Of a stretch of DNA of 64,000 bases, positions 50,096 through 64,000 are shown piece by piece. The DNA is taken from sequence record ON568341.1; one strand, given 5' to 3'. The notes below the pieces were generated by a model. The model had not been told where the DNA came from and made no database searches. It saw only the letters and a program-made list of their open reading frames with translations. The translations under genes and the position numbers were made by a program. This DNA comes from Escherichia phage UE-S1. Position 1 is the stretch's first letter, and each line of letters begins with the position of its first letter.

Positions 50096-50120
50096 AGAAG
50101 GAATATTAGGAGAACTACAT

Positions 50121-50557: not shown

Positions 50558-50558
50558 T

Positions 50559-50955: not shown

Positions 50956-51002
50956 AAACAGCACCAGGGTCCGAGTACTTTAACATAGTAAGGCTAATTA
51001 CA

Positions 51003-51188: not shown

Positions 51189-51196
51189 GGAATACT

Positions 51197-51376: not shown

Positions 51377-51386
51377 AGGAAACCAA

Positions 51387-52221: not shown

Positions 52222-52222
52222 T

Positions 52223-52402: not shown

Positions 52403-52410
52403 CACATAAT

Positions 52411-52602: not shown

Positions 52603-52603
52603 T

Positions 52604-52792
52604 ATGAATAACCACAAAGAATACTACACACAATTTCTCCCCAGCATTTTGGAACAATACGCCAGATATAAAGTCCCCCTCGATAACGATTTGGCAGTAC
52701 TGGGATTCAATAACTGCATAGAACGAAGTATAGAAAATAGTAATAGCTATGAACAATTATATAACACTATCCTACTTATATTCAGGTACTAA
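52604..52792 (+). CDS. small protein, family C
   Basis: MNNHKEYYTQFLP ... LLIFRY; TAATATG coupling. Confidence 0.55.
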   Translation: MNNHKEYYTQFLPSILEQYARYKVPLDNDLAVLGFNNCIERSIENSNSYEQLYNTILLIFRY

Positions 52793-52793
52793 T

Positions 52794-52982
52794 ATGTATA
52801 AAGAATACTACGCAAAATATTTCCCAATGTATCTCAGAACTAATCTATTAGATAAACCTCGCGATATCAATGCACAAAACGATAAAGTGTACTTTATTAT
52901 GTGCACTAAAGCATGTATACTAGATCATGACAGCTACCATCGAGTACTGTATCATACACTGTACCTAGCTTTCGTATACTAA
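52794..52982 (+). CDS. small protein, family C
   Basis: Track ORF trimmed; MYKEYYAKYFPMYL ... LAFVY. Confidence 0.55.
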   Translation: MYKEYYAKYFPMYLRTNLLDKPRDINAQNDKVYFIMCTKACILDHDSYHRVLYHTLYLAFVY

Positions 52983-52983
52983 A

Positions 52984-53042
52984 ATGTACTCCGGTTTAAT
53001 AGGACTAATATTCTTCTATGAATAATCATAAAGATTTCTACA
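52984..53042 (+). repeat. 59-bp near-identical direct repeat of 50728-50786 (gene-junction duplication)
   Basis: ATGTACTC(A/C)GGTTTAATAGGACTAATATTCTTCTATGAATAATCATAAAGATTTCTA present twice. Confidence 0.8.
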
Positions 53043-53197
53043 TAAGCCATCTGGATATAAACTCCCAAATGCTTATACTACTAAACACAATAGATTTCAA
53101 GGATAAGAAAAAGATCCAACAATTCATTGACCATACGGACCGTGCTGTGAACCAAAATTATATGTACTACATTCTCGCCCTAATATACAGGTACTAA
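53018..53197 (+). CDS. small protein, family C (59 aa, below track cut-off)
   Basis: MNNHKDFYISHL ... LALIYRY; preceded by duplicated junction. Confidence 0.5.
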   Translation: MNNHKDFYISHLDINSQMLILLNTIDFKDKKKIQQFIDHTDRAVNQNYMYYILALIYRY

Positions 53198-53198
53198 T

Positions 53199-53384
53199 AT
53201 GCATAGAGAATACTATATACAATTTGTTAAAGAAAACTACAAACACGCCGTCCCCGTAAACCCTTTAAATTCTAATGACCCAAGTACTATATTCTTGTTC
53301 CATGACGCAATACGTACAGTACTCAATACTAAAGATGAACAAGTGCAGTACGTATTCTTACTTTTACTTATATACAGACACTAA
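53199..53384 (+). CDS. small protein, family C
   Basis: MHREYYIQFV ... LLLIYRH. Confidence 0.55.
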   Translation: MHREYYIQFVKENYKHAVPVNPLNSNDPSTIFLFHDAIRTVLNTKDEQVQYVFLLLLIYRH

Positions 53385-53397
53385 AGCACTAACTAAT

Positions 53398-53598
53398 ATG
53401 AATAAAGAATATAAAGACTTCTATATAAGTAAACTAAAAGAAAATGAACAAGCATGGATTCAACCACTAATAATACTTCCATTTAATAGATATTCATTGA
53501 ACCGATGTACCGAGATTGCTATAGACCCTTGTCCTATTAAAGAGAATGTACAATACAATCAGTACTACTATATCTTAATGCTTATATATAGGAAGTAA
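53398..53598 (+). CDS. small protein, family C
   Basis: Track ORF trimmed; MNKEYKDFYISKL ... LMLIYRK. Confidence 0.55.
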   Translation: MNKEYKDFYISKLKENEQAWIQPLIILPFNRYSLNRCTEIAIDPCPIKENVQYNQYYYILMLIYRK

Positions 53599-54285
53599 TT
53601 AAACACATATAGACAGGGGAAGCTCCGTAGTGGAAGCATTATACAGGCTTTAACATATGTTGCATATGTTAAAATTCAGCCTGGACAAATGCGATCACTA
53701 GGATTCTCCCCAGGCTAAACCCCGTAACTCTACAGAGAAGCCAATAGCTTCTCTTTGTCATAGGTAGTCATAAGTAATCATATATAAACATTTAAGTAAT
53801 CATTCATACGCACGGTAGTGATTAGTATTGAGTACTAGAGTACAGGAATGTTCACGTTTAATCAAGAACGTAGCAGTACTGCCCCAAAAGTATTCAGTAC
53901 TGAAGGTGTCGATATCCCACTAAGTAGGCAGAGGAAGTCTGCCGTACTTTGTAGTTTCCAAGCTCCTTTTCCATTTTTCAAATTACATCAAATGTATTCA
54001 AAAGTAATCACGTAATGATTAGTACTGAATTATTACTTTCACCTTAATTCCAAATACTCTTTTACCCTTCGGGGAAAATCCCATTACCCCTTGAGGCTCC
54101 AGCAAAAAGTTGGAAAGTACTCCATCGTAAATCTGGATCGTAAAAATTTTGGAGTACCTATGAAATAAAAGTTGGATCTTCGAAAGTTGAAATTTACGTT
54201 GGGACATATAGGATTGATGGGATATAATGAGTTTTGTAGAGATACAGATTATACGATTTCAGTACTGAATAATGAAAGAAAGCTA

Positions 54286-54313
54286 TTGACTTTATGATTC
54301 AGTACTGTATAAT
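54286..54313 (+). promoter_or_regulatory. sigma-70-type promoter (TTGACT-16-TATAAT) with no downstream ORF
   Basis: TTGACTTTATGATTCAGTACTGTATAAT inside ORF-free region. Confidence 0.5.
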
Positions 54314-54689
54314 GTTCTATATAGAGAGATGAGTTGCCGCAAACAATTCATTCACTCTACCTCCTGTCGTGAGACAGTACAGAAAAGATAGTTCCTCCTA
54401 TGGGTGGTACATCTTTTTATAACCTCTTTTTTCGTAATATAAACAGTACTGATATTAACAGAATGGTGTCAGTACTGATTTTAATCTAATACAATACACC
54501 CACCAGCTTGTGCTGGTGGATTATCCACTAACAGTATTCAGTACTACATGATAGTCTTCATCCTCCTAGGGTAACATAGTGAGGGCTATTGTGGGAGTAC
54601 TGAATACTCCTTTCACAAGATAGATCTATGGTATAGTACTGACGGATTTTGGGCGTAGTAAGCCTAGGTTAAATTTAGACGTAGAGATG

Positions 54690-54835
54690 TCTAGACCTCC
54701 AGATGGTTGGAAGTAAAGATGGCTATCCCTCTAGGCGGCTGGATGGCTAGATTTCTAGATGGCTGTACTGCTAGACGTTTGGACGGCTAAACGGCTAGAT
54801 GGTTACACGTCTGGAAGTATAGACGGCTAAATCAA
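54690..54835. repeat. iteron-like cluster of short degenerate direct and inverted repeats
   Basis: Recurring CTAGATGG, GGCTAGAT and AGACGGCTAAA units. Confidence 0.6.
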
Positions 54836-55452
54836 AATTTTTATTCTGTTTTTTCCAATAGTTCCCCTACCGCGTGAGGATGTTTTTCCCCGCAGTATCT
54901 GGTGTTAGATTTTTCTGAATCTGGAATCATTATCTAATAAACTGGGGGCAATGTCAACGGCCTGGATGAATATTTTTAAAAAATAATCTAGTACTAAATT
55001 TTGGGCGTAACTATGCACCCGGTGGGCTTGAGTCTTTCTCGACTTGATGAAATAATTATATCAGTACTGGAAAAATAAAGCAATACCATGGAAGCAAAAA
55101 AGTTTTAATTAATTTGCTTGCTATCCTGGGCCGGACTATGGTACTATATTTCAGTACTGAGAAAGTGCGTTTACCTGCTAGGGTGCGGGAGTGTATCCTT
55201 TTTTTATATCTTGAATTTTGGGCGTAATTCCGCACCCTCTGGGGTTTCCGCTTTCTCGCGTCTATGTAGTAATTATACGCTTTTTTAGTACTGAGTCAAT
55301 AGCCAAAAACAAAATAATTGAAAATAATTTAACGCGTTTAAACGGCCTGTAAAGCCCTGAAATGATTAGAATGGTGCAAATGTATAGCTTAGGTGTATTA
55401 ATGCGTTAGAATGCGTCTGAGGCCGTTTTACGTGGTATAGGGATGATTTAGT

Positions 55453-55548
55453 GGATTGATTCAGTACTGAATAATAGTACTCCTATATAGAAAGATAGTT
55501 CCCCTGGATTGATTCAGTACTGAATAATAGTACTCCTATATAGAAAGA
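55453..55548 (+). repeat. tandem direct repeat (~43-bp unit, 2 copies, period ~53)
   Basis: GGATTGATTCAGTACTGAATAATAGTACTCCTATATAGAAAGA twice. Confidence 0.8.
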
Positions 55549-55579
55549 AAACTATTTTAAAAGTATTTGTAGAAAGTAC

Positions 55580-55607
55580 TTGCACAGTACTGAAAAAAGC
55601 GTATAAT
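55580..55607 (+). promoter_or_regulatory. early-type sigma-70 promoter (TTGCAC-16-TATAAT) followed by 5-prime stem-loop 55624-55636
   Basis: Conserved AGTACTTGCA..GCGTATAATGTTTTACATC module then GGGAA-CAC-TTCCC. Confidence 0.6.
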
Positions 55608-55661
55608 GTTTTACATCGAGAGCGGGAACACTTCCCTACTCACTTTTAAGAGATTAAAACG

Positions 55662-56024
55662 ATGGCGACTCAAATCACTAAAATCATTGCTAACCTGGTT
55701 AACTTCCGCGACGATATGAAAGATCTTCCGGCGGCAACGGTTAAAACTCACATTGACGCATACCGCGAACTGATTAAAATGTTGCCGCTTAAGCGTGAAC
55801 AATACGCCGCTAAACTGATGCTTGATGCGATGATCCATAAGATGATCGCCAGTGATTTGACGATGGTTTATCAGTATATGGGCGAAAATTTCGCGGTGTA
55901 TAGTAAACCAGTACCAGGAATGGAAAGTACAGAAGTATTACACGGTTTAAATTTAAAACAAGATGCATGGGATAATATGCCTCGTTTCCTGGTATGGGCT
56001 GACAGTGGCAAAATTTACGAATAA
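55662..56024 (+). CDS. hypothetical protein (120 aa)
   Basis: Track ORF; own promoter and 5-prime hairpin. Confidence 0.6.
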   Translation: MATQITKIIANLVNFRDDMKDLPAATVKTHIDAYRELIKMLPLKREQYAAKLMLDAMIHKMIASDLTMVYQYMGENFAVYSKPVPGMESTEVLHGLNLKQDAWDNMPRFLVWADSGKIYE

Positions 56025-56037
56025 GTTAAAAATTAGT

Positions 56038-56065
56038 TTGACAGTACTGAATAAAAGCGTATAAT
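56038..56065 (+). promoter_or_regulatory. early-type promoter (TTGACA-16-TATAAT) followed by stem-loop 56078-56096
   Basis: TTGACAGTACTGAATAAAAGCGTATAAT then GTGGGGAA-TAG-TTCCCCAC. Confidence 0.6.
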
Positions 56066-56116
56066 GTTTTACATCAGGTGGGGAATAGTTCCCCACTATA
56101 TAAGAGGATTAAAAAA

Positions 56117-56356
56117 ATGGCTAAATCAAAAATGTTCTTAGGTCACAAAAACAAAACTCATTGGAATGTAAGCCTGTGGATTAATAACGATGAGGGATTG
56201 TATCGGTTGGCCCTGGACTTTATTGCCGCCCATACTAATCGCAATGATGCGGCCCGTCATATGATGTTATTTTTAGAACAGACTGGACAAGATAAAACAC
56301 CGGACGGATTCAAATATAGCACTACTGCGATCCGTGCGGCGATGGTTGGAATGTAA
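56117..56356 (+). CDS. hypothetical protein, paralogue of 58157-58396
   Basis: Track ORF trimmed to ATG after AGAGGA; conserved GHKNKTHWNVSLWINN and PDGFKYSTTAIRAAMVGM. Confidence 0.55.
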   Translation: MAKSKMFLGHKNKTHWNVSLWINNDEGLYRLALDFIAAHTNRNDAARHMMLFLEQTGQDKTPDGFKYSTTAIRAAMVGM

Positions 56357-56442
56357 TAGAATTTATTTAAAGTACTATCATTTTTTTGCGATAGTACTTT
56401 ATAATAGTGTTTTATTCATACACCAACGATAAGGGCAACAGC

Positions 56443-56709
56443 ATGAATATTAAGTATTTTGCGACGCGTGAACAAGCTCGGATCGCCGCACGCCAGGACG
56501 GGGCAACGTTTAAAGATATGGGCGTACAATCGGAACGTGGTAAACGTTGGGCCATTGTAAAGCGTAGTACCGCCAGATCATTACAGTACTGGTTAGCGGC
56601 CTTAAAAAGTCCCGATAGTGTATCGCGTCGAGTGGTAGAAATAAAGCTCGACCGAAAGGGCAACCGCGTGACTGTGTACCGTACTAAAAAGATTGCAGTA
56701 CTTGAATAA
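56443..56709 (+). CDS. hypothetical protein
   Basis: Track ORF trimmed to ATG at MNIKYFATRE. Confidence 0.45.
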   Translation: MNIKYFATREQARIAARQDGATFKDMGVQSERGKRWAIVKRSTARSLQYWLAALKSPDSVSRRVVEIKLDRKGNRVTVYRTKKIAVLE

Positions 56710-56716
56710 AAAGTAC

Positions 56717-56744
56717 TTGCAAACTATGTTTAAAGGCGTATAAT
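56717..56744 (+). promoter_or_regulatory. early-type promoter (TTGCAA-16-TATAAT) followed by stem-loop 56759-56775
   Basis: TTGCAAACTATGTTTAAAGGCGTATAAT then GCGGGAA-CTC-TTCCCGC. Confidence 0.6.
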
Positions 56745-56796
56745 GTTTTACATCGAGAGCGGGAACTCTTCCCGCCTATAACCTGGAGTAATAAAA

Positions 56797-57027
56797 ATGA
56801 CTAATATGTATATGACTGAAGTTAAAACCGTAAAAGATACTACCACGAATAAAACTACTTACTTACAGCGGATCTGTGGTGTATGGCAACGTATCAGCAA
56901 ATCAAAGTACTTTAAATTAACATCATATGCAAACCGTTCGGATTCATTCAGTACTGAAATAAAAGGTAATAAAGTACACCAATACGGCACTTATTATTAT
57001 TACAGCCTGGACGCGATTGCAGTATAA
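56797..57027 (+). CDS. hypothetical protein (76 aa)
   Basis: Track ORF after promoter, hairpin and GGAG RBS. Confidence 0.55.
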   Translation: MTNMYMTEVKTVKDTTTNKTTYLQRICGVWQRISKSKYFKLTSYANRSDSFSTEIKGNKVHQYGTYYYYSLDAIAV

Positions 57028-57278
57028 TCATATTTTTTGAAAAATTTACAATTGCCGGTATTGACTTATTTTGTCAGTACTGGCATAATGTATTCATTGG
57101 CAGATAAGCCGTAGCCCATAGGGTGCGGGAGTGTATCTATAGAAAAATTAGTTTAGTATAGTTACAATTGTGCACCCGGTGGGTTAGCTGTTGTCATGGG
57201 GTATATTATGCCAGTACTTGATAATGCTGTCAATACTTTTTTTACTATTCAGTACTGAAAACTATTTTTAAAAAGTAC

Positions 57279-57306
57279 TTGCTAACTATGTTTAAAGGCG
57301 TATAAT
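57279..57306 (+). promoter_or_regulatory. early-type promoter (TTGCTA-16-TATAAT) with stem-loop but no ORF
   Basis: Promoter and ACGGGG..CCCCGT hairpin with no ATG before the next promoter. Confidence 0.5.
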
Positions 57307-57394
57307 GTTTTACATCAGGACGGGGAACGAAATAAGTAACCCCGTTAAGTAGTCCAGGAGTAAGACATACGAAAAACTCCCCTGATAAAATAGT

Positions 57395-57422
57395 TTGACA
57401 AATGTTTTTAAAAGCGTATAAT
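57395..57422 (+). promoter_or_regulatory. early-type promoter (TTGACA-16-TATAAT)
   Basis: TTGACAAATGTTTTTAAAAGCGTATAAT upstream of 57455 gene. Confidence 0.6.
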
Positions 57423-57454
57423 ACTTACATCAACTACTGAATGAGGGTTACAAA

Positions 57455-58066
57455 ATGAAAACTATCACTACTACTACTTTTGTTATGGCTTTTTCTGAAC
57501 TGAACGCAGAACAAAAAACGGCGGCTATCGAACTGGTTCGGGATCGTGAGCGTTCATGTGAGGATAATTTCTTTGCTGAGGGCGTTATCGAGTACTATAA
57601 AGAAACAGTACTACCAGAATACGGCATAGATGAAGCTGAATTGCAATACAGTGGTTTTTGGTCGCAAGGTGACGGTGCATCAATCAGTACTGACAGCGTG
57701 GACGCGGAGAAGTTTTTACGCAAGATTAAAGCGTTAACGAAATATCGTTCTATCCGTCACTTGTTGAATGAAGATGATTTGGCAATGAGTGTAGAACGTT
57801 CACACTCTCGCTACGCACACGAAAACACGGTAAGCGGTTGCGTTGATACTCGCTACACTGATTTAACTGTAAAACAAGCGGCACTTGCTGATGACCTGGA
57901 AAACTTACTGACTGATGCGATCCGTGAATTATCTCGTAAGTTGTACCGTGATTTAGAGAATGCATATGAGGATCAATTCACTACTGAAAACATTACTGCA
58001 CTGATTGAGGGTAACGAATATCAATTCAATGTTATTGATGGCGTAGTGGAATCAATCGAATATTAA
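57455..58066 (+). CDS. acidic hypothetical protein (203 aa)
   Basis: Track ORF with GAGGG RBS; D/E-rich. Confidence 0.6.
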   Translation: MKTITTTTFVMAFSELNAEQKTAAIELVRDRERSCEDNFFAEGVIEYYKETVLPEYGIDEAELQYSGFWSQGDGASISTDSVDAEKFLRKIKALTKYRSIRHLLNEDDLAMSVERSHSRYAHENTVSGCVDTRYTDLTVKQAALADDLENLLTDAIRELSRKLYRDLENAYEDQFTTENITALIEGNEYQFNVIDGVVESIEY

Positions 58067-58156
58067 TTCAAAAAGTACTTGTAAACTAAGTTTAAAAGCG
58101 TATAATACTTTACATCAAGGCGGGGAGTGGTTCCCCGCTCAAACGAGGATTTAAAA

Positions 58157-58396
58157 ATGGCTAGTACTAAAACTTACAACGGACACAAAAACAAAACTCA
58201 TTGGAATGTAAGCCTTTGGATTAATAACGGTGAGTCATTGTATCGGCTTGCACAAAGTTGCATCGCACAAAGTAGAACTAAAGATATTGCTGCGGAATGT
58301 ATGTACCGCAGATTAAAAGCCAACGGTACTACTACAACACCGGACGGATTCAAATATAGCACTACTGCGATCCGTGCTGCAATGGTTGGAATGTAA
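58157..58396 (+). CDS. hypothetical protein, paralogue of 56117-56356
   Basis: Track ORF trimmed to ATG after GAGGA; conserved N- and C-terminal blocks. Confidence 0.55.
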   Translation: MASTKTYNGHKNKTHWNVSLWINNGESLYRLAQSCIAQSRTKDIAAECMYRRLKANGTTTTPDGFKYSTTAIRAAMVGM

Positions 58397-58453
58397 TATT
58401 CAGTACTGAGATAATGGCGGGTAATAGTTCCCGCCTTTACTGAGGGTTATCTA

Positions 58454-58714
58454 ATGAGTAAAGTAATTAGCTATACAGCACTAAGCAAGACATTATCTAT
58501 TAGCCAGTGCACCGATGGTTATTGGCTATTTGATGAAACGCGTGGCATGAATTTAGCCATGCGTGCAAAAACTGCTGAGGCGGCGTATCTTGAAGCATTG
58601 GAATACTACCAGGAACGTTTAAAGGAAGTAGAAGAAGATTATAAAAGCCTCAAAGCGAAAGTAGATCATTTCGTCGGTCAATTCATCGAGGAAGACGACG
58701 ACAAACAATATTGA
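58454..58714 (+). CDS. hypothetical protein (86 aa)
   Basis: Track ORF after GCGGG..CCCGCC hairpin and GAGGG RBS. Confidence 0.55.
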   Translation: MSKVISYTALSKTLSISQCTDGYWLFDETRGMNLAMRAKTAEAAYLEALEYYQERLKEVEEDYKSLKAKVDHFVGQFIEEDDDKQY

Positions 58715-58800
58715 AAAAGTACTTGCAATTAGTTTTCAGTACTGTATAATGGTTTACATCAAAGGGAGAAATGGTTCTCCCTGGTAATGAGGAAAATAAA

Positions 58801-59022
58801 ATGGCTAATATCACTACTCTTTCCCAACTGGAAGCACTGGTGAAATCTATGCGGGAACATGCCGACAAAATCGGCGTACAAGATCCAGCCGTTTGCTTCT
58901 GCGACGAATTGAATGATGATACACTGGTAATAGCAGAAGTCCAGGACGTTTCTAACTATTCCTCGCGTTACACTGGCGGCGTAGCAAATAAAGGCGACTT
59001 CTGTTTATACCTTACAAAATAA
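58801..59022 (+). CDS. hypothetical protein
   Basis: Track ORF trimmed to ATG after promoter, GGGAGAAATGGTTCTCCC hairpin and GAGGAAAA RBS. Confidence 0.55.
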   Translation: MANITTLSQLEALVKSMREHADKIGVQDPAVCFCDELNDDTLVIAEVQDVSNYSSRYTGGVANKGDFCLYLTK

Positions 59023-59265
59023 CAACGCGGGGAGATAATAACTCCCCGTTACTTTTTCAGTACTGAATCATTTAATAGACGGATCTCGGCACCCGGTGGG
59101 TTAGTGACTGTTTCGTCTTGATGTAGTAATTATGCCAGTACTGGATGCACTTGTCAACAACTATTTTTCAAATACTTTTTATTAAAATACTTGCAATTAG
59201 TTTTTAAACGCGTATAATGTTTTGCATAGGGGGAGCGGTTCCCCTGGTAACTAAGGAATAAGAAA

Positions 59266-59502
59266 ATGCTCGAACAAATCAAATCAACGTCTGCGAATGT
59301 AACGGGAACTGTATCACACTTTACTAGTGATGAATCGCGTGGTGTTCCTTATTGTGCTGTACATGTAAACACTGATGGCAACTACTGGTTTACGGTTTAC
59401 GGATCATATTCATTTGGTCGGCCAGGACATCAAAAAATCCTGGATAAAGTACAGCCAACGGGTAAAAATATCACTGCTGAAATGTTTTATAAAAAATCAT
59501 AA
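59266..59502 (+). CDS. hypothetical protein (78 aa)
   Basis: Promoter, GGGGGAGCGGTTCCCC hairpin, AAGGAA RBS. Confidence 0.55.
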   Translation: MLEQIKSTSANVTGTVSHFTSDESRGVPYCAVHVNTDGNYWFTVYGSYSFGRPGHQKILDKVQPTGKNITAEMFYKKS

Positions 59503-59586
59503 AGTACTTGATAATAGTTTTTAGTACTGTATAATATTTTACATCGCAAGGGGGAGCGGTTCCCCCTGGTAACTAAGGATAATAAA

Positions 59587-59886
59587 ATGAAAATTGCAAT
59601 CATCGCCCTGGCTTTATCTGTTTCCTCTTTCGCTGTTAATGCGTCATTAGATGTAAGTAGTGAAAAATTCATTCAGTGCACTGTTGCAATGACCGATGAA
59701 AGTACTGGCGAGATTGTATTAAAGGATTTAGAGATCCAGCCGGAAGCATTTAAAAACGGCCCGTTCCATGAAGAAGACGAAAACGGTAGCACATCAATTT
59801 ATTATGATGCCAGTACTAAACGCGGTTCGGTCACTGTAATGGATACTGAGAAAGTAACGCATACCGGCGTTATTAATTGCCGTTGA
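59587..59886 (+). CDS. secreted small protein (signal peptide)
   Basis: MKIAIIALALSVSSFAVNA; promoter and hairpin upstream. Confidence 0.6.
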   Translation: MKIAIIALALSVSSFAVNASLDVSSEKFIQCTVAMTDESTGEIVLKDLEIQPEAFKNGPFHEEDENGSTSIYYDASTKRGSVTVMDTEKVTHTGVINCR

Positions 59887-59907
59887 TAGATACTACGGGG
59901 TAACATC

Positions 59908-60138
59908 ATGACTAAGCGAATTGTTTTACTTAACGAAAGCAGTACTACACAACTACTTAACGCCGTGCATTATGATATTGAAACGAGCGTTAATCTTATC
60001 AGTACTGTAGTACTGTTGGACACTGGAAAGGTCGCCAATGATAAAGCGATTGCAGGTATATTAACGGATCTTGAGCCTGGTAGCAGTGCACCAATAACGT
60101 TAAATGGTAAAGTGTTTAATATTTTACTCACTGATTAA
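59908..60138 (+). CDS. hypothetical protein (76 aa)
   Basis: Track ORF followed by terminator. Confidence 0.5.
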   Translation: MTKRIVLLNESSTTQLLNAVHYDIETSVNLISTVVLLDTGKVANDKAIAGILTDLEPGSSAPITLNGKVFNILLTD

Positions 60139-60144
60139 GTACAT

Positions 60145-60166
60145 AGCCCACCTGGTGGGCTTTTTT
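60145..60166 (+). terminator. intrinsic terminator
   Basis: AGCCCAC-CTG-GTGGGCT plus T6. Confidence 0.7.
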
Positions 60167-60371
60167 GTTTTTGTAGTATCGTAGTACTGAGATACTTTGA
60201 AAATAGTTTTAAGAAAGTAGTTGACATTACCGCAGAAAAGCGTAGAATGTATTACATCAAGACGGGGAGCACTAAGTAGACCGCCAGTAAGTCGAACGAA
60301 AAACTGGACACGTCGAGAAAACTTTGATACACTAATAAACGTAAACTAAACTTTAATTGAGGATTTATAAA

Positions 60372-60854
60372 ATGGCTAATGTAAAATCATTTCTGAAAGC
60401 ACTGATTTCTAACGACACTGCTATTGCGGCTGAATTGCTGGCGGATCTGGATAGCGATACCATGAAAGCAGTACGCAACAATTTTAACATTGCGTACAGT
60501 GAAGCTAAAGAACTGCAAGCCAAAAAGATAGCAGAACTGGAAGAACAGAAAAAAGCCCGTGAAGAAGAACTACAAGCAACGATTGAAAGTATTCAGGCGG
60601 CGGTTGCAGGGTTGGATCTGGAAGTAGTTATTGAAATGGCACATAAAGCACTGGCAGTTAAGTACGGGGAAGATAAGCCAGTAACTAAACCTAAAAAATG
60701 GATTCAGGAACGCGTAACGGTTGTTCTTGATAATGGCGAGGAACATTTAATTCCCGTGCGTGGTAACTGCATTGCGGTAGTTCTGGATGCTATCAAAGAA
60801 AGCGGATTGACTCGCGAGGAATGGATCGAAGCTCACCGCAAAATTGAAGCATAA
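60372..60854 (+). CDS. hypothetical protein (predicted coiled coil)
   Basis: Track ORF trimmed to ATG after GAGGA; promoter TTGACA..TAGAAT upstream. Confidence 0.55.
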   Translation: MANVKSFLKALISNDTAIAAELLADLDSDTMKAVRNNFNIAYSEAKELQAKKIAELEEQKKAREEELQATIESIQAAVAGLDLEVVIEMAHKALAVKYGEDKPVTKPKKWIQERVTVVLDNGEEHLIPVRGNCIAVVLDAIKESGLTREEWIEAHRKIEA

Positions 60855-60875
60855 CAATTAAAGTACTGAATCACT

Positions 60876-60902
60876 AGCCCACTTCTTATAGTGGGCTTTT
60901 TT
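60876..60902 (+). terminator. intrinsic terminator
   Basis: AGCCCAC-TTCTTATA-GTGGGCT plus T6. Confidence 0.65.
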
Positions 60903-61129
60903 GTGTTTATCGTTTACCAGTCCACTAGCACCGCCTAGAATCGATTCTAACGCATTAAACTGATTATCTGATGAATAGCCCTAGCTGGTGGCGTTAATGC
61001 CGTTAGAAAGCGATTGAGGACGTTTAAAGTATTTTGCAAAAAGTAATAAAAAGTACTTGCACGATTAAGAGATTAGAGTATAATTAATTACATCAAGACA
61101 AGACACCTTAACTAACTGAGGATATAAAG

Positions 61130-61282
61130 ATGAATACTTATGAACTGGATTGTTTCACTTTACAAGTAATGTCAGTATGCAGTAAAAAAGATTGGTCATC
61201 AAAGGAATTTAAAGCAGTTATTGCGTGTGCAAAACACGGCAAGACTATCAATGAAACGGCATCAATCATTGATAAACTTTAA
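61130..61282 (+). CDS. hypothetical small protein (50 aa, below track cut-off)
   Basis: ATG after GAGGATATAAAG; own promoter upstream. Confidence 0.45.
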   Translation: MNTYELDCFTLQVMSVCSKKDWSSKEFKAVIACAKHGKTINETASIIDKL

Positions 61283-61290
61283 AAAATAGT

Positions 61291-61319
61291 TTGACAATAG
61301 TTTTAAGTACTGCGATAAT
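61291..61319 (+). promoter_or_regulatory. early-type promoter (TTGACA-17-GATAAT)
   Basis: TTGACAATAGTTTTAAGTACTGCGATAAT. Confidence 0.5.
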
Positions 61320-61354
61320 ACATACATCAACTACTGAATAGGAATAAAAAAACA

Positions 61355-61582
61355 ATGGCTATCATCATTACTTACGTATCTGGTACTACTGGCACTGCTT
61401 CAACTGTTGCTGTAATTACTAATAAGAAAGGAGCGGAATTACATTTTGCAATGGATAATTGGGCCGTGAAGGAGTTCGGACCGTGGGCAAGTGTAGCATA
61501 CATTGAAACCTATCAAGTGCCATCGATTAGCTTAACTGATTTAGGTGTAGATCGAATCTTATGCCTGGATGAATTAATTTAA
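61355..61582 (+). CDS. hypothetical protein (75 aa)
   Basis: Track ORF. Confidence 0.5.
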   Translation: MAIIITYVSGTTGTASTVAVITNKKGAELHFAMDNWAVKEFGPWASVAYIETYQVPSISLTDLGVDRILCLDELI

Positions 61583-61668
61583 AAAAGTACTTGCAAAGTA
61601 AATCGAATAAAGTATAATACATTACATCAAGGGGAGAAAATGGTTCTCCCCACTAAGAGGAAACTAAT

Positions 61669-61812
61669 ATGAAAACTTGTCAATGTGGTAAAAAATCTAT
61701 TACTGGTTTGAAACGGGGCGTTGCACTTTGCCAGTACCATTATAATTTACAAGTATGGGGTAAAGAATGGGCCGATCAAGTGGAAGCAATTAAGAAAGCA
61801 AAAAGTAAGTAA
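61669..61812 (+). CDS. Cys-rich small protein (47 aa), possible zinc ribbon
   Basis: MKTCQCGKK...ALCQYHYN; promoter, GGGGAGAAAATGGTTCTCCCC hairpin and AGAGGA RBS upstream. Confidence 0.45.
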   Translation: MKTCQCGKKSITGLKRGVALCQYHYNLQVWGKEWADQVEAIKKAKSK

Positions 61813-61893
61813 AAATATTATCACAGTACTATTGACATAGATTGATAGTACTGGCATAATAGATTTTATCAAGACAACTAAGAGGAAATTAAA

Positions 61894-62238
61894 ATGGCTA
61901 ACATCAATACTATAGCAGCACAAAATATTAACCTGTCTTCTGTTGAAGTTGTACACATTGCCGCCCGGCGTTGGTTCCAGGCGTCTTATGGTAATACTTA
62001 TTTCTCTTTAACGGTAGATGTTGAAATCAATGGCGAATTTATTGAAGTAGTAAACGTGCCGTTCCAATATGGCTACGGGGATCATTTTGACACTGTAGCA
62101 ATGGAAGAATTTAGCAAGGTTATTAATATGGAAGGTAAAGAGTTTTTACGCGGTTCTTATCTTTCCCGTTTTTGCCGTGATAATAATATTACTGTTTATA
62201 GTTCTGTTAGTGATGTTAAACGCAAAAAAGATCTTTAA
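61894..62238 (+). CDS. hypothetical protein (114 aa)
   Basis: Track ORF; promoter TTGACA..CATAAT upstream, AGAGGA RBS. Confidence 0.55.
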   Translation: MANINTIAAQNINLSSVEVVHIAARRWFQASYGNTYFSLTVDVEINGEFIEVVNVPFQYGYGDHFDTVAMEEFSKVINMEGKEFLRGSYLSRFCRDNNITVYSSVSDVKRKKDL

Positions 62239-62318
62239 TTAGCTTTACTTTATGCAGATACTTTGATATAGTGTCTGCATAGGGGAAAGAAATTAAATCA
62301 ACTTAAGAGGATAGTAAA

Positions 62319-62588
62319 ATGAAAAATATCAGTACTTTAATCGATGCAGGCACACATGTTCGTCGGTCTATGGTTGCAACCAGTTCTACAAAACAAGTAG
62401 CGAGCGGTTATCTTGTATTTGTGCACGATGGAAAACTCCTGGAACGTTCAATCAATTTTGATGTTAAAAACAATTGCCGTTTTATTATCTTTAAGCGTGA
62501 GCAATATAAAATTGATTTACCAGCAAAGCCCATTAGTGGGGCGTACAACGTGCAATCATTGTTTGAGCGTCAACCATACACCTATTAA
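62319..62588 (+). CDS. hypothetical protein (89 aa)
   Basis: Track ORF after hairpin and AGAGGA RBS. Confidence 0.55.
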   Translation: MKNISTLIDAGTHVRRSMVATSSTKQVASGYLVFVHDGKLLERSINFDVKNNCRFIIFKREQYKIDLPAKPISGAYNVQSLFERQPYTY

Positions 62589-62639
62589 TCAAAACAACGT
62601 TAGCGGTCGATTTAGGCCGCTTATACTGGGGATTATATA

Positions 62640-62810
62640 ATGAATACTAATCAAGTACTGAACGAGATTGAAAGCATCATTAAACCGATGAAGCGTACTG
62701 ATGCAATGTTAACACCGGAAGAATGCCGCTTATATGAGCGTTACAGCGTCGAACAAGTCCAGGCAATGGCCCGTATCCGTCCGGTTGCCAGTACTGATAA
62801 GGCGGCGTAA
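62640..62810 (+). CDS. hypothetical small protein (56 aa, below track cut-off)
   Basis: ATG after GGGG; followed by TAATATG-coupled next gene. Confidence 0.4.
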   Translation: MNTNQVLNEIESIIKPMKRTDAMLTPEECRLYERYSVEQVQAMARIRPVASTDKAA

Positions 62811-62811
62811 T

Positions 62812-63021
62812 ATGCTTACTGTACAGGATAAGATCGACATCTTAAAGGTTAATATGTATGTGATTGATGCCGTACCTGGTAAAGTATTTGCATACGATGA
62901 CACCACTGTAAGCAATTTCTACTATAGCCAGGACGTGGGGGATCTTTCTGTACAGTCGGTTATTGAAAATGTAGTTAATGCAGCGTATGAGCATTTACTT
63001 TCAAATAGTACTTGCAATTAG
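62812..63021 (+). CDS. hypothetical protein
   Basis: Track ORF 62734 trimmed to ATG coupled to upstream stop. Confidence 0.45.
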   Translation: MLTVQDKIDILKVNMYVIDAVPGKVFAYDDTTVSNFYYSQDVGDLSVQSVIENVVNAAYEHLLSNSTCN

Positions 63022-63090
63022 TTTTCAGTACTGTATAATGTTTTACATGAAGGGGAGAAATAGTACTCCCCACTAATTAAGGAATATGAA

Positions 63091-63237
63091 ATGAAAGCAT
63101 CAAAAAAGAGTAATACTAAGAAAGCATGTTCACCTTTCGCTGGGGTATTCCCTTTACGTTTCGTTGATGAAGTGGTTTCCTACCCGCCGGGCCTTACTCC
63201 TGAGATGGTAGAAAGTTTGCGTAAATCTAAAAAATAA
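63091..63237 (+). CDS. hypothetical small protein (48 aa, below track cut-off)
   Basis: Promoter, GGGGAGAAATAGTACTCCCC hairpin and AAGGAA RBS upstream. Confidence 0.45.
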   Translation: MKASKKSNTKKACSPFAGVFPLRFVDEVVSYPPGLTPEMVESLRKSKK

Positions 63238-63318
63238 TACTTGCAATTAGTTTTTAGTACTGTATAATGTTTTACATGAAGGGGAGAAATGATTCTCCCC
63301 AAGAACAGGAGAAACAAA

Positions 63319-63471
63319 ATGAAACAATACAACGCTCGGTTTGATGTTACTATCGGCAACGGCAAAGGTCAATTCTCTTTCAGTACTCGTAAGAGTTATA
63401 CAGAAAACTTCTTGCGTAATTGTGCACTGACCGCCGCACAAATTAAACATTATTTTCAGGCTAAAAAATGA
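63319..63471 (+). CDS. hypothetical small protein (50 aa)
   Basis: Track ORF 63289 trimmed to ATG after AGGAGA; promoter and hairpin upstream. Confidence 0.5.
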   Translation: MKQYNARFDVTIGNGKGQFSFSTRKSYTENFLRNCALTAAQIKHYFQAKK

Positions 63472-63557
63472 AATCATTAGCTTATTATAGTTCGGCCCTG
63501 GTCGGTGCATTGATCGCGGCATTGTTAGTAGCTTATCTATTCTTTATGGTGATTTAA
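63468..63557 (+). CDS. possible 29-aa hydrophobic micro-protein
   Basis: ATGA overlap with previous stop; single TM-like helix. Confidence 0.3.
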   Translation: MKSLAYYSSALVGALIAALLVAYLFFMVI

Positions 63558-63695
63558 ATGAATCCTAACGGTATAATTTACAGTACTCCTAAAACGAAAG
63601 CAGATAAAGCTAAAGCACGTAAAGCGAAAGTAAAGGAATACATCAAGCAAGGCATGACACGAAAGGCGGCGATTCTAAAAGCTAAAAATAAATGA
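63558..63695 (+). CDS. hypothetical small basic protein (45 aa)
   Basis: ATG directly after previous stop (TAAATG); K/A-rich; followed by terminator. Confidence 0.4.
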   Translation: MNPNGIIYSTPKTKADKAKARKAKVKEYIKQGMTRKAAILKAKNK

Positions 63696-63702
63696 AAAAA
63701 GT

Positions 63703-63726
63703 GGTTGACTTCGGTCAGCCATTTTG
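63703..63726 (+). terminator. intrinsic terminator (weaker T-run)
   Basis: GGTTGAC-TTCG-GTCAGCC then ATTTTG. Confidence 0.55.
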
Positions 63727-63916
63727 CTATTATATAATCATTGAGAGATAGCTCACTAGCCCACGGGGTGCGGGAGTGTATCTATTATATAAGCATTGAG
63801 TACTGAAAACTATTTTAAAAGTATTTGCAGAAAGTACTTGCAAACTATCTCAATTGGCGTATAATGTTTTACATCGCAAGGGGAAACGGTTTCCCCTAGT
63901 AATAAGGAATAAAATC

Positions 63917-64000
63917 ATGACTATTGCAATTGTACAATCTAACTTTGAAAATGAAATCATCGCCCAAGCACTGCGTTTAAATGATGGTCGGGCCGAAATT
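63917..64000 (+). CDS. hypothetical protein, 5-prime partial (runs off window)
   Basis: Promoter TTGCAA..TATAAT, GGGGAAACGGTTTCCCC hairpin, AAGGAA RBS, ATG at 63917. Confidence 0.5.
   Translation, partial: MTIAIVQSNFENEIIAQALRLNDGRAEI

What the first reader, a model, noticed from the sequence alone, without database searches (positions are those of the whole stretch)
55600..64000. Compositional shift: the promoter-cassette block looks GC-richer with different codon preferences
By eye, coding sequence after ~55600 uses many GCG, CCG, CGC and CTG codons that are rare in the AT-rich upstream 55 kb. The boundary coincides with the 2-kb ORF-free region. This suggests recent acquisition from a GC-richer donor, or a genome segment under different constraints. 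I did not compute GC.
Basis: seen in the sequence. Interest (0 to 1): 0.5.

Follow-up and report, generated by a model that had tools for sequence, protein, structure and literature searches.

The report
GC-richer terminal-repeat early-gene block
The GC-richer stretch is real and is the start of the roughly 21-kb terminal repeat of a jumbo E. coli phage, a block of tiny genes with their own host-type promoters and host-like codons, so it reflects a known kind of early-gene module and not recently imported DNA.

Summary
GC is 38.4% in 55601-64000 against 33.6% upstream. GCG+CCG+CGC+CTG make up 54.7 codons per 1000 against 13-19 upstream. Synonymous usage differs far more than between random gene subsets.

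The boundary is at about 53.6-53.9 kb, not 55.6 kb, so the ORF-free 1.7 kb belongs to the GC-richer block.

The window comes from an Asteriusvirus (PBECO4/121Q-like) jumbo coliphage. Position 53923 matches, base for base over 40 nt, the left physical end of phages fEgEco12 and vB_Ec-M-J, whose ~21-kb direct terminal repeats (DTRs) are published. In three relatives with determined termini, a GC change point falls 20-160 bp from the DTR end.

The shift sits mainly in coding DNA and points toward the host. Rare E. coli codons (AGA, AGG, ATA, ACA, GGA, CGA) are depleted, and CTG, CGC, GGC, ATC, GCG and CCG are enriched. This holds within A/T-ending and within G/C-ending codons separately.

The block is not recent foreign DNA. 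It keeps its position across the genus. A Klebsiella relative carries homologues only inside its own DTR. Its oligonucleotide signature is phage-like. Substitutions show GC at equilibrium.

Best reading: a host-RNA-polymerase-transcribed early module kept host-tuned by selection. Early timing is inferred, not shown.

The parts
53923..64000 (+). First 10,078 bp of the ~21-kb direct terminal repeat (DTR). This is the GC-richer compositional domain; it runs off the window end.
   Evidence: Window 53923 onward aligns with position 1 onward of fEgEco12 and vB_Ec-M-J, and the first 40 nt are identical. The window also reads through the fEgEco12 unique-to-right-DTR junction in a single HSP. GC is 0.384 against 0.336 upstream.
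53923..55600 (.). ORF-free DTR leader, 37.2% GC, dense in AGTACT palindromes and repeats.
   Evidence: No ORF of 60 aa or more. No tRNA. No Rfam family in 53000-64000 apart from one sub-threshold match at 60839-60904. Sequence and repeats. The same leader is ORF-free in fEgEco12 (1-1688) and vB_Ec-M-J (1-1759).
54286..54313 (+). Sigma70-like promoter inside the leader (TTGACT N16 TATAAT).
   Evidence: 11 of 12 consensus matches.
55568..55621 (+). Promoter cassette 1 (-35, 16-nt spacer, TATAAT, TACATC).
   Evidence: Repeat family D1, 14 copies.
56026..56079 (+). Promoter cassette 2 (TTGACA N16 TATAAT).
   Evidence: Family D1; 12 of 12 consensus matches.
56705..56758 (+). Promoter cassette 3.
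57267..57320 (+). Promoter cassette 4.
57395..57422 (+). Sigma70 consensus promoter upstream of the 203-aa gene.
   Evidence: 12 of 12 consensus matches.
58067..58120 (+). Promoter cassette 5.
58711..58764 (+). Promoter cassette 6 (CAGTACTG directly before TATAAT).
59179..59232 (+). Promoter cassette 7.
59496..59549 (+). Promoter cassette 8.
60209..60262 (+). Promoter cassette 9.
61045..61098 (+). Promoter cassette 10.
61579..61632 (+). Promoter cassette 11.
63000..63053 (+). Promoter cassette 12.
63229..63282 (+). Promoter cassette 13.
63826..63879 (+). Promoter cassette 14.
55662..56024 (+). Gene, 120 aa, GC3 0.44.
   Evidence: ORF; phrog_7352, unknown function; homologues in unrelated coliphages.
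56117..56356 (+). Gene, 79 aa, DUF7249.
   Evidence: Pfam PF23907 at 3e-11; phrog_871.
56443..56709 (+). Gene, 88 aa.
   Evidence: phrog_8127.
56797..57027 (+). Gene, 76 aa.
   Evidence: phrog_5293.
57455..58066 (+). Gene, 203 aa. Its homologue lies in the DTR of fENko-Kae01, and homologues lie near the record start in several related jumbo phages (Munch, Serratia BF, CBB).
   Evidence: phrog_5162; tblastn. No Pfam, NCBIfam or PDB match.
58157..58396 (+). Gene, 79 aa, a DUF7249 paralogue of 56117-56356.
   Evidence: (families D10 and D11).
58454..58714 (+). Gene, 86 aa.
   Evidence: phrog_19040.
58801..59022 (+). Gene, 73 aa.
   Evidence: phrog_33522.
59266..59502 (+). Gene, 78 aa.
   Evidence: phrog_9227.
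59587..59886 (+). Gene, 99 aa, hydrophobic N-terminus.
   Evidence: phrog_31669. The fEgEco12 counterpart is annotated 'protein spackle' by its depositors.
59908..60138 (+). Gene, 76 aa.
   Evidence: ORF; counterpart annotated in fEgEco12.
60372..60854 (+). Gene, 160 aa.
   Evidence: phrog_27871.
61130..61282 (+). Gene, 50 aa.
   Evidence: ORF.
61355..61582 (+). Gene, 75 aa.
   Evidence: phrog_13850.
61669..61812 (+). Gene, 47 aa, Cys-rich.
   Evidence: ORF.
61894..62238 (+). Gene, 114 aa.
   Evidence: phrog_6246.
62319..62588 (+). Gene, 89 aa.
   Evidence: phrog_14550.
62640..62810 (+). Gene, 56 aa.
   Evidence: ORF.
62812..63021 (+). Gene, 69 aa.
   Evidence: ORF.
63091..63237 (+). Gene, 48 aa.
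   Evidence: ORF.
63319..63471 (+). Gene, 50 aa.
   Evidence: phrog_7119.
63558..63695 (+). Gene, 45 aa, Lys-rich.
   Evidence: ORF.

Best explanation
The GC-richer block is the leading 10 kb of the ~21-kb direct terminal repeat of an Asteriusvirus (PBECO4/121Q-like) jumbo coliphage. The window crosses the junction between the unique right end of the genome and the repeat at position 53923.

The repeat is a self-contained module. It opens with a 1.7-kb non-coding leader. After that come dozens of very small genes, each behind its own near-consensus sigma70 promoter, a conserved 5'-UTR hairpin and a Shine-Dalgarno site.

Inferred mechanism: these genes are read by unmodified host RNA polymerase and host ribosomes immediately after DNA entry, before the phage has reshaped the cell. 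Selection therefore keeps them on host-preferred codons and away from codons served by scarce host tRNAs. They also encode a different, Ala-richer and less hydrophobic set of proteins. Together these effects raise coding GC by about 7 points, while the rest of the genome drifts AT-rich.

Exchange of such cassettes among large coliphages probably adds to the effect.

Shown here: identity with the DTR, the architecture, the direction of the codon shift, its conservation, and compositional equilibrium.

Inferred only: early timing and host-polymerase dependence in this phage, and translational selection as the cause.
For: Identity:
- 199 phage records match, the best being Asteriusvirus genomes at 88-95% identity.
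- Position 1 of fEgEco12 and of vB_Ec-M-J both map to window 53923, and the first 40 nt are identical. The fEgEco12 termini were confirmed by PhageTerm plus restriction digests, giving a DTR of 20,993 bp (PMC13070987). The vB_Ec-M-J DTR is annotated at 21,525 bp.

The GC domain coincides with the DTR:
- Maximum-likelihood GC change points fall at 21,013 against a DTR end of 20,993 in fEgEco12, 21,546 against 21,525 in vB_Ec-M-J, and 19,577 against 19,736 in fENko-Kae01.
- GC inside against outside is 38.5% against 32.2% in fEgEco12.

Architecture:
- 14 copies of a 54-nt promoter cassette lie in the window block.
- A sigma70 pattern finds 30 sites in the fEgEco12 DTR and 0 in the next 24 kb. 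In fENko-Kae01 it finds 20 against 3.
- Genes are spaced 80-100 bp apart in the DTR and overlap just after it.
- The 5'-UTR hairpins fold consistently, with different stem sequences.

Host-directed codon shift:
- log-RSCU correlation with E. coli is 0.54 for the window block and 0.54 for the whole fEgEco12 DTR, against -0.17 to 0.07 elsewhere.
- The shift correlates with E. coli preference within A/T-ending codons (rho 0.45-0.64) and within G/C-ending codons (rho 0.38-0.61).
- CAI is 0.458 against 0.335 in the window (p=1e-5), 0.453 against 0.286 in fEgEco12 (p=1.5e-14) and 0.434 against 0.323 in fENko-Kae01 (p=2.5e-5).

Coding-specific:
- Coding GC is 40.2% against 33.2%; intergenic GC is 35.3% against 32.2%.
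- In fENko-Kae01, non-coding GC is 34.2% against 34.1%.
- Ala rises from 4.3% to 8.7%.

Stability: S>W/W>S is 1.02-1.09 and the equilibrium GC is 0.37-0.38.

Early expression in a relative: in PA5oct, RNA-seq shows DTR genes gp34-gp105 highly transcribed early, and the phage relies on host polymerase (PMC7318152). That stretch is 38.5% GC against 27% and 32.7% on its flanks.

Phage tRNAs: they include Thr-UGU, in two copies in fEgEco12. ACA makes up 35-56% of Thr codons outside the DTR and 12-17% inside.
Against: - No expression data exist for this phage or any Asteriusvirus that I could find. Early timing rests on promoter consensus and on a distant relative.
- The genes just after the DTR, which are small and tightly packed, may also be early, yet they have the lowest CAI. 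'Early' alone therefore does not predict the shift. Individual strong promoters or high expression may be the real variable.
- CGG, a rare E. coli codon, is enriched in the DTR.
- GC1 and GC2 also rise, so part of the shift is amino-acid content, not codon choice.
- The non-coding leader is GC-rich (37-38.5%) without any codon argument.
- The exact coincidence of the GC domain with the repeat ends would also fit a process tied to the repeat itself.
- Physical duplication of this block in this particular phage could not be tested.
Confidence: 0.65

Rival explanations
1. Recent horizontal acquisition of the block from a GC-richer donor. The composition would be a leftover of the donor and would be decaying toward the phage's AT-rich norm.
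For: Composition and codon usage are atypical for the window. The boundary is abrupt.
Against: The block is present at the same position in the genus at 88-95% identity. A Klebsiella relative keeps 19 homologues, all within its own DTR. GC is uniform across 21 kb. The GC-normalised tetranucleotide signature is phage-like and not E. coli-like. There is no S>W excess, and equilibrium GC equals current GC. No integrase, transposase or other mobility gene turned up among the 20 proteins scanned. Among the three aligned Asteriusvirus genomes the DTR is better conserved than the upstream accessory region: 8,891 of 10,078 sites align three ways, against 4,314 of 36,155.
Confidence: 0.05
2. Old and continuing exchange of promoter-gene cassettes among large E. 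coli myoviruses. Partners would include Vequintavirus (rV5-like), Phapecoctavirus and Justusliebigvirus, which are GC-richer by my recollection. This exchange would set the composition, and the DTR would be the landing pad for a shared accessory gene pool.
For: The concatenated block proteins hit 382 phage records, against 103 for a same-size control of non-DTR small proteins. Clusters of 3-6 block genes occur together in genomes of 130-156 kb at 60-75% amino-acid identity. Single-gene searches agree.
Against: Genes with and without such homologues have similar GC3 (shared six genes mean about 0.36, the rest about 0.36). Identities of 55-75% mean the exchange is old, yet composition is at equilibrium. 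The shift follows host tRNA-related preferences within base classes, which a donor-composition effect does not predict. The same shift occurs in fENko-Kae01 and PA5oct with different gene sets.
Confidence: 0.15
3. A process tied to terminal redundancy itself raises GC inside the repeat. The two copies recombine every cycle, so GC-biased gene conversion or a different repair or mutation regime would act there.
For: The GC domain coincides with the DTR ends to within 20-160 bp in three genomes. The non-coding leader is also GC-rich. Terminal repeats of T5 and SPO1 are slightly GC-richer than adjacent DNA: 40.0% against 38.4%, and 42.2% against 39.9%.
Against: Intergenic DNA in the DTR is only 0-3 points richer than elsewhere, against 5-8 points for coding DNA. 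These spacers are mostly functional, so they are an imperfect control. The shift among A/T-ending codons (ACA to ACT, AGA to CGT, ATA to ATT, GGA to GGT) cannot come from GC-biased conversion. In PA5oct the first 7 kb of the annotated DTR is the most AT-rich part, at 27%.
Confidence: 0.08
4. The shift is only a protein-class effect. The block encodes small soluble proteins, whereas the comparison region is rich in small hydrophobic membrane proteins, so GC1 and GC2 differ without any special constraint on the DNA.
For: GC1 rises 5 points and GC2 rises 6 points. GARP residues (Gly, Ala, Arg, Pro) go from 15.5% to 20%, and FYMINK residues (Phe, Tyr, Met, Ile, Asn, Lys) from 36% to 31%. Many comparison-region proteins look membrane-embedded.
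Against: Synonymous usage, which does not depend on amino-acid content, differs with chi-square 341 against a control of 48 +/- 13. GC3 rises 10 points. CAI also rises.
Confidence: 0.07

Closest known systems
Long direct terminal repeats of Asteriusvirus / Rak2-like jumbo phages (fEgEco12 20,993 bp; vB_Ec-M-J 21,525 bp; BF17 ~20.5 kb; Sharanji 20,668 bp; CBB 22,456 bp; fENko-Kae01 19,736 bp)
   Same: Homologous and collinear sequence, with an identical 40-nt terminus at window 53923. It has the same ORF-free leader and the same spaced small genes.
   Different: The parts of the papers I searched by keyword report the repeats but do not describe their distinct composition, codon usage or promoter density. 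One states that no function could be assigned to the DTR (PMC10059673). Whether this particular phage carries two physical copies was not testable.
DTR early region of Pseudomonas jumbo phage PA5oct
   Same: A long DTR full of small unknown genes that are highly transcribed early, in a phage that relies on host RNA polymerase (PMC7318152). The early part is GC-richer than its flanks.
   Different: No detectable protein homology with the fEgEco12 or window DTR genes. GC is patchy there (0.29-0.51), and the first 7 kb of the annotated repeat is AT-rich.
Phage T5 terminal repeat: first-step-transfer DNA with pre-early genes
   Same: Early genes behind host-type promoters inside a long terminal repeat that 'enters host cell first', with a non-coding repeat-rich stretch at the inner edge (record annotation). 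The same direction of shift is present but weak: GC3 0.395 against 0.321, and CAI 0.382 against 0.337 at p=0.056.
   Different: None of the 20 window proteins scanned received a functional annotation, so no A1, A2 or dmp counterpart was recognised. Two-step DNA transfer is unknown for Asteriusvirus. The repeat is twice as long and holds about 55 single-gene cassettes. The GC step is 6 points against 1.6.
Phage SPO1 host-takeover module in the terminal redundancy
   Same: About 24 small genes in the ~13-kb terminal redundancy, spaced about 100 bp apart, with host-shutoff functions (record annotation). That each gene has its own early promoter is my recollection of Stewart et al. 1998, not checked here. 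The redundancy is slightly GC-richer than the next 17 kb, 42.2% against 39.9%.
   Different: Gram-positive host, no sequence relationship tested, and a much smaller compositional step.
Temporal partition of codon usage in phages (Mioduser et al. 2017, PMC5683454; T4 early against late genes, Cowe and Sharp 1991, from memory)
   Same: [quoted passage not shown]
   Different: Here the classes are defined by genome position and promoter type, not by measured timing. The partition coincides with a physical feature, the terminal repeat, to within tens of bases.
Horizontally acquired genomic island or moron
   Same: Atypical GC and codon usage with a sharp boundary, and single genes carrying their own promoter and sometimes a terminator.
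   Different: The block is conserved in position across genera, has a phage-like oligonucleotide signature, is at compositional equilibrium, and has no mobility genes.

Membership tests
Asteriusvirus / Rak2-like direct terminal repeat | Sequence homologous and collinear with a repeat whose ends were determined experimentally | tested here: met
   Window 53923-58159 aligns with fEgEco12 1-4246 at 91.7%, and further blocks extend to 64000. The window also reads through the fEgEco12 unique-to-right-DTR junction in one HSP. Termini are from PMC13070987.
Asteriusvirus / Rak2-like direct terminal repeat | Conserved terminal sequence at the repeat start | tested here: met
   AGTAGGCAGAGGAAGTCTGCCGTACTTTGTAGTTTCCAAG is identical in the window, fEgEco12 and vB_Ec-M-J.
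Asteriusvirus / Rak2-like direct terminal repeat | The same sequence physically present at both ends of the packaged genome of this phage | not testable with these tools
   Only one copy lies in the 64-kb window, and no reads or coverage are available.
Host-RNA-polymerase-dependent early gene module | Near-consensus sigma70 promoters in front of the genes, concentrated in the module | tested here: met
   14 cassettes lie in the window block, and two sites match 12 of 12 consensus positions. A sigma70 pattern finds 30 sites against 0 in fEgEco12 and 20 against 3 in fENko-Kae01, inside against outside the DTR.
Host-RNA-polymerase-dependent early gene module | Transcription in the first minutes of infection, sensitive to host polymerase inhibition | not testable with these tools
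   Only indirect evidence: RNA-seq of the distant relative PA5oct.
T5-type first-step-transfer (pre-early) region | Early genes located in a long terminal repeat | tested here: met
   By homology to delimited DTRs, with early timing inferred and not shown. T5 annotation.
T5-type first-step-transfer (pre-early) region | Homologues of the T5 transfer and shutoff proteins A1, A2 or dmp | tested here: not met
   20 window proteins scanned against Pfam and PHROGs, and 10 of them also against NCBIfam. All hits are 'unknown function' or DUF7249. Only the first 10 kb of the repeat is in the window.
T5-type first-step-transfer (pre-early) region | Two-step DNA entry halted at an injection stop signal | not testable with these tools
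   A repeat-rich non-coding leader lies at the inner edge of the right-hand repeat. Its function is unknown.
Foreign genomic island | Atypical base composition and codon usage | tested here: met
Foreign genomic island | Atypical oligonucleotide signature after correcting for base composition | tested here: not met
   r is 0.53-0.77 with other window chunks, 0.98 with the fEgEco12 DTR and 0.13 with E. coli.
Foreign genomic island | Patchy presence among close relatives, mobility genes, or ongoing amelioration | tested here: not met
   Present in the genus at the same site. Homologues lie in the DTR of a different genus. No mobility genes. S>W/W>S is 1.02-1.09.
Temporal codon-usage partition | Significantly different synonymous codon usage between two gene classes, linked to the host tRNA pool | tested here: met
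   Chi-square 341 against control 48 +/- 13. Within-class correlations with E. coli RSCU. CAI tests.
Temporal codon-usage partition | The classes correspond to measured expression times | not testable with these tools
   No transcriptome for any Asteriusvirus found.

The most novel reading that the evidence does not exclude
The repeat works like T5 first-step-transfer DNA. The right-hand copy enters first and alone. Its genes, all transcribed toward the terminus, must run entirely on host polymerase and host tRNAs, which explains the host-tuned promoters and codons. The 1.7-kb non-coding leader at the inner edge of that copy, dense in AGTACT palindromes, iteron-like repeats and a perfect 44-nt duplication, would be an injection-stop or packaging signal. 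Two-step genome entry has not been described for a jumbo myovirus as far as I know.
Probability: 0.15. Interest if true: 0.6.

Novelty: new member of a known kind. Interest (0 to 1): 0.3.

Why it matters
Most GenBank records of these 350-380 kb phages are opened arbitrarily or have the repeat collapsed. In three genomes a plain GC change point recovers the determined repeat end to within 20-160 bp, so composition, codon adaptation and promoter density give a cheap way to place the termini.

The result also marks about 55 unannotated small genes per genome as a host-tuned set under selection. Some are shared with other coliphage families, which makes them the natural place to look for host-takeover and anti-defence functions.

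The cassettes (strong sigma70 promoter, 5' hairpin, Shine-Dalgarno site) are ready-made expression parts.

Weaker shifts in the same direction in T5 and SPO1, and a strong one in PA5oct, suggest that terminal-repeat early modules lying closer to host composition may be general. That has not been examined systematically.

Tried and rejected
- My first guess for the ORF-free 2 kb was a tRNA cluster. ARAGORN finds tRNAs only at 71-4849.
- Rfam at a permissive threshold on 53000-64000 gives only a sub-threshold Trp-leader match at 60839-60904: 23.9 bits against a gathering score of 41.
- Tandem Repeats Finder finds only trivial 10-nt repeats in the leader.
- Pfam, NCBIfam, PHROGs and PDB sequence searches give no function for any of the proteins scanned. 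The only hits are DUF7249 twice and PHROG families of unknown function.
- tblastn of the DTR proteins against the first 50 kb of PA5oct found nothing.
- Literature searches found no transcriptome of an Asteriusvirus. The phAPEC6 paper has no promoter or expression data.
- The idea that phage tRNAs exactly complement the codons avoided in the DTR is only partly borne out. Thr-UGU fits ACA, and a CAU tRNA might read ATA. No Arg-UCU tRNA was seen, and AGC, served by Ser-GCU, is enriched in the DTR and not depleted.
- A three-way substitution count for 50025-53922 failed for lack of aligned sites.

Full report
**1. What the window is.** Megablast of 55600-64000 against GenBank phages finds 199 records. 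The best are Asteriusvirus jumbo coliphages of 347-386 kb (WPEC5, SHEFM2K, phAPEC6, WPEC3, SP27, fEgEco12, vB_Ec-M-J and others) at 88-95% identity, covering 46-84% of the query. The upstream 39000-57000 matches the same genomes. No record is identical, so the window is a further member of this genus.

**2. The observation.** GC is 0.384 in 55601-64000, 0.336 in 1-55599 and 0.331 in 3285-39439. Among 8.4-kb windows the last one is the highest, with a range of 0.314-0.386.

- In predicted genes, GC1/GC2/GC3 are 0.484/0.369/0.364 in the block against 0.432/0.306/0.262 in 3285-39439. Per-gene GC3 differs at p=7e-7.
The three upstream gene blocks give 17.0, 13.0 and 19.3.
- The chi-square for synonymous usage is 341 (41 df). 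Random same-size subsets of the upstream genes give 48 +/- 13, maximum 103.

Three refinements apply.

- The boundary is at 53.6-53.9 kb, not 55.6 kb. The ORF-free stretch itself is 37.2% GC.
- The RCC1-like paralogue block 39481-50024 also reaches 0.38-0.40 in 2-kb windows, through GC2.
- The small-paralogue array at 50025-53600 already has GC3 0.37. What changes at the boundary is which codons are used: CAI is 0.306 before and 0.458 after, p=2e-4.

The block correlates at 0.53-0.77 with other chunks of the window (which correlate with each other at 0.54-0.92), at 0.98 with the fEgEco12 repeat, and at 0.13 with E. coli.

**3. What the block is.** The record of vB_Ec-M-J annotates 'Direct Terminal Repeats' at 1-21,525, and our block matches its first 10.6 kb. 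The fEgEco12 paper reports a 20,993-bp direct terminal repeat (DTR) found by PhageTerm and confirmed by restriction digests (PMC13070987). BF17 and Sharanji have ~20.5-kb and 20,668-bp DTRs, and CBB has 22,456 bp.

Position 1 of both fEgEco12 and vB_Ec-M-J aligns to window 53923. The 40 nt starting there are identical in all three. Upstream, the window follows the fEgEco12 junction between unique DNA and the right-hand repeat. The window therefore runs from the unique right end of the genome into the repeat. Positions 53923-64000 are the first 10,078 bp of the repeat.

**4. The GC domain coincides with the repeat.** In fEgEco12 the DTR is 38.5% GC and the next 24 kb is 32.2%. A single maximum-likelihood change point in 1-45000 falls at 21,013, which is 20 bp from the published end. 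The same test gives 21,546 against 21,525 in vB_Ec-M-J and 19,577 against 19,736 in Klebsiella phage fENko-Kae01. fENko-Kae01 shares only about 29% ANI with fEgEco12 according to PMC13070987.

**5. Architecture.** The window block holds 14 copies of a 54-nt cassette of the form AAAAAGTACTTGCAA, 16-nt spacer, TATAAT, GTTTTACATC.

- Several further sites match the sigma70 consensus, two of them at 12 of 12 positions.
- Each cassette is followed by a 6-9 bp G+C-rich hairpin, whose stem sequence differs between copies, and then by a Shine-Dalgarno site.
- A simple sigma70 pattern finds 30 sites in the fEgEco12 DTR and none in the following 24 kb. In fENko-Kae01 it finds 20 against 3. In the window it finds 14 in the last 10 kb and 14 in the first 54 kb.
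- In fEgEco12, genes inside the DTR are separated by 80-100 bp. Just beyond it they overlap by a few bases.
- The proteins are 45-203 aa with no assignable function.

**6. Direction of the codon shift.** I used real E. coli K-12 genes as the reference: 32 ordinary genes, and 30 ribosomal-protein, rpoA and elongation-factor genes.

- log-RSCU correlation with E. coli is 0.54 for the window block, 0.54 for the whole fEgEco12 DTR and 0.34 for the fENko-Kae01 DTR. All non-DTR sets lie between -0.17 and 0.07.
- The shift is not merely 'more GC'. Among A/T-ending codons alone, the DTR-against-non-DTR change correlates with E. coli preference at rho 0.45-0.64. Among G/C-ending codons alone, rho is 0.38-0.61.
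- AGA, AGG, ATA, ACA, GGA and CGA fall two- to five-fold. CTG, CGC, GGC, ATC, GCG, CCG and AGC rise. CTC, GTC, GAG and AAG do not move. CGG is an exception.
- CAI rises from 0.335 to 0.458 in the window (p=1e-5), from 0.286 to 0.453 in fEgEco12 (p=1.5e-14) and from 0.323 to 0.434 in fENko-Kae01 (p=2.5e-5).

**7. Where the shift sits.** Coding DNA is 40.2% GC in the block against 33.2% upstream. Intergenic DNA is 35.3% against 32.2%. In fENko-Kae01 coding DNA is 38.6% against 33.7%, while non-coding DNA is 34.2% against 34.1%. Part of the shift is amino-acid content. Ala doubles from 4.3% to 8.7%, GARP residues (Gly, Ala, Arg, Pro) go from 15.5% to 20%, and FYMINK residues (Phe, Tyr, Met, Ile, Asn, Lys) from 36% to 31%.

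**8. Is it imported DNA?** Four results say no, at least not recently.

- The block is present across the genus in the same place.
- 19 of 52 fEgEco12 DTR proteins have homologues in the first 45 kb of fENko-Kae01. Every one lies within that phage's DTR, in shuffled order. The 203-aa gene also has homologues near the record start in other related jumbo phages.
- The signature test in section 2 shows a phage-like oligonucleotide pattern.
- I polarised substitutions by parsimony among the window, fEgEco12 and vB_Ec-M-J. In the DTR there are 276 S>W and 254 W>S changes, or 215 against 210 in the gene part. The implied equilibrium GC is 0.37-0.38, which equals the present value. The non-DTR sites give 0.34. 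A decaying import should show an excess of S>W, and it does not.

Exchange with other phage families is nevertheless real, but old. Concatenated block proteins hit 382 records, against 103 for a size-matched control. Groups of 3-6 of the genes lie together in Vequintavirus-, Phapecoctavirus- and Justusliebigvirus-type genomes at 60-75% identity. Genes with and without such homologues have similar GC3.

**9. How it most likely works.** Host-type promoters in front of every gene, host-type codons and avoidance of codons for scarce host tRNAs all point the same way. These genes appear to be expressed with unmodified host machinery at the very start of infection.

- The only direct data come from the distant relative PA5oct. 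There, DTR genes gp34-gp105 are highly transcribed early and the phage depends on host polymerase (PMC7318152). That stretch is 38.5% GC between flanks of 27% and 32.7%.
- The CBB authors also suspected that the terminal repeat continues the early region (PMC5259590).
- The phage carries tRNA-Thr(UGU). ACA is three times more frequent outside the DTR than inside. The fit with the other phage tRNAs is weak.
- Differences in codon usage between early and late phage genes, partly tied to host tRNA supply and GC, are documented in general (PMC5683454).

Early timing and selection as the cause remain inferences for this phage.

**10. Comparison with known systems.** The T5 terminal repeat (annotated as first-step-transfer DNA with pre-early genes and an injection stop signal) and the SPO1 terminal redundancy (host-shutoff genes gp38-40, gp44, gp50/51 and gp56) are the classical parallels.

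- Both show the same direction of shift, but small. T5 is 40.0% against 38.4% GC, with GC3 0.395 against 0.321 and CAI p=0.056. SPO1 is 42.2% against 39.9%.
- None of the 20 scanned proteins received a functional annotation, so no counterpart of the T5 A1, A2 or dmp proteins was recognised.
- Two-step DNA entry cannot be tested here. I therefore say the block works like these modules, not that it belongs to them.

**11. Verdict.** The 'recent acquisition' reading is rejected and the 'different constraints' reading is supported. The feature is the already published terminal repeat of this phage genus. Its sharp compositional and codon identity appears not to have been described in the papers I searched, but it is an instance of a known phenomenon. 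Interest is modest. The practical value is as a marker of genome ends and of a host-tuned early gene set.

Noticed in passing
Whole window; densest in 53831-59143: The palindrome CAGTACTG occurs 53 times against 0.75 expected. AGTACT occurs at 2.7 per kb outside the repeat and 6.6 per kb inside, and the same pattern holds in fEgEco12 and in Klebsiella phage fENko-Kae01. Eleven of the 53 sites are followed (or, on the other strand, preceded) by a -10-like hexamer; in about half of these that gives CAGTACTG-TATAAT, an extended -10. Many others occur as TTCAGTACTGAA, several of them between genes. Its role is unknown.
   Followed up: partly
54650-54830 and 55452-55548: The non-coding repeat leader contains a degenerate iteron-like run (GGCTAGATGG / TAGACGGCTAAA variants). 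It also has a perfect 44-nt direct repeat spaced 53 nt apart (55452-55495 and 55505-55548). It sits at the inner edge of the right-hand repeat, the same relative place as the T5 injection stop signal.
   Followed up: partly
55006-55071, 55223-55288, 59080-59145, about 57150-57235: A repeated ~70-nt non-coding element carries good sigma70-like promoters on the minus strand (for example TTGACA N17 CATAAT at 59157-59129 and 57233-57205). This suggests short antisense or divergent RNAs inside the repeat. PA5oct has RNA-seq-supported ncRNAs in its repeat.
   Followed up: partly
About 12 nt after each TATAAT, for example 56077-56097, 58119-58139, 59549-59565: A conserved 5'-UTR hairpin of 6-9 G+C-rich pairs whose stem sequence differs between cassettes (GGGGAAT/ATTCCCC, GCGGGGAG/CTCCCCGC, GGGAGAA/TTCTCCC). 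The structure looks selected, perhaps for mRNA stability.
   Followed up: partly
39481-50024, minus strand: Nine tandem paralogues of 245-396 aa (eight of them 373-396 aa), Gly/Ser/Thr-rich. Relatives annotate them as RCC1-like 'regulator of chromosome condensation'. Copy number and content vary strongly between Asteriusvirus genomes.
   Followed up: no
50345-53598, plus strand: An array of about a dozen ~60-aa paralogues, with N-termini such as MNNHKEYY and C-termini such as LLIYRY. GC3 is unusually high (0.37) but the codon usage is not host-like. The array ends about 320 bp before the repeat start.
   Followed up: no
71-145, plus strand: A tRNA-like gene that ARAGORN calls with a four-base anticodon (tcat), meaning an 8-nt anticodon loop. 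It could be a frameshift-type or degenerate tRNA.
   Followed up: no
12772, 14134, 19081, 19429, 32028 (promoter starts): A few sigma70-consensus promoters outside the repeat precede genes whose CAI lies in the repeat-gene range (for example 19139-19432, 19550-19858, 32103-32657). This hints that codon tuning follows promoter type and not only position.
   Followed up: partly
15733-16686: The ORF here appears to correspond to the gene annotated 'RNA polymerase sigma factor' in fEgEco12 and vB_Ec-M-J, judged from matching size and relative position only. A phage sigma factor would fit a switch away from host-type promoters after the early phase.
   Followed up: no
3285-39439 compared with 53923-64000: Among the window, fEgEco12 and vB_Ec-M-J, the repeat aligns three ways over 8,891 of 10,078 sites. 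The upstream accessory region aligns over only 4,314 of 36,155 sites at 85% identity or more. The repeat is the better conserved of the two.
   Followed up: partly
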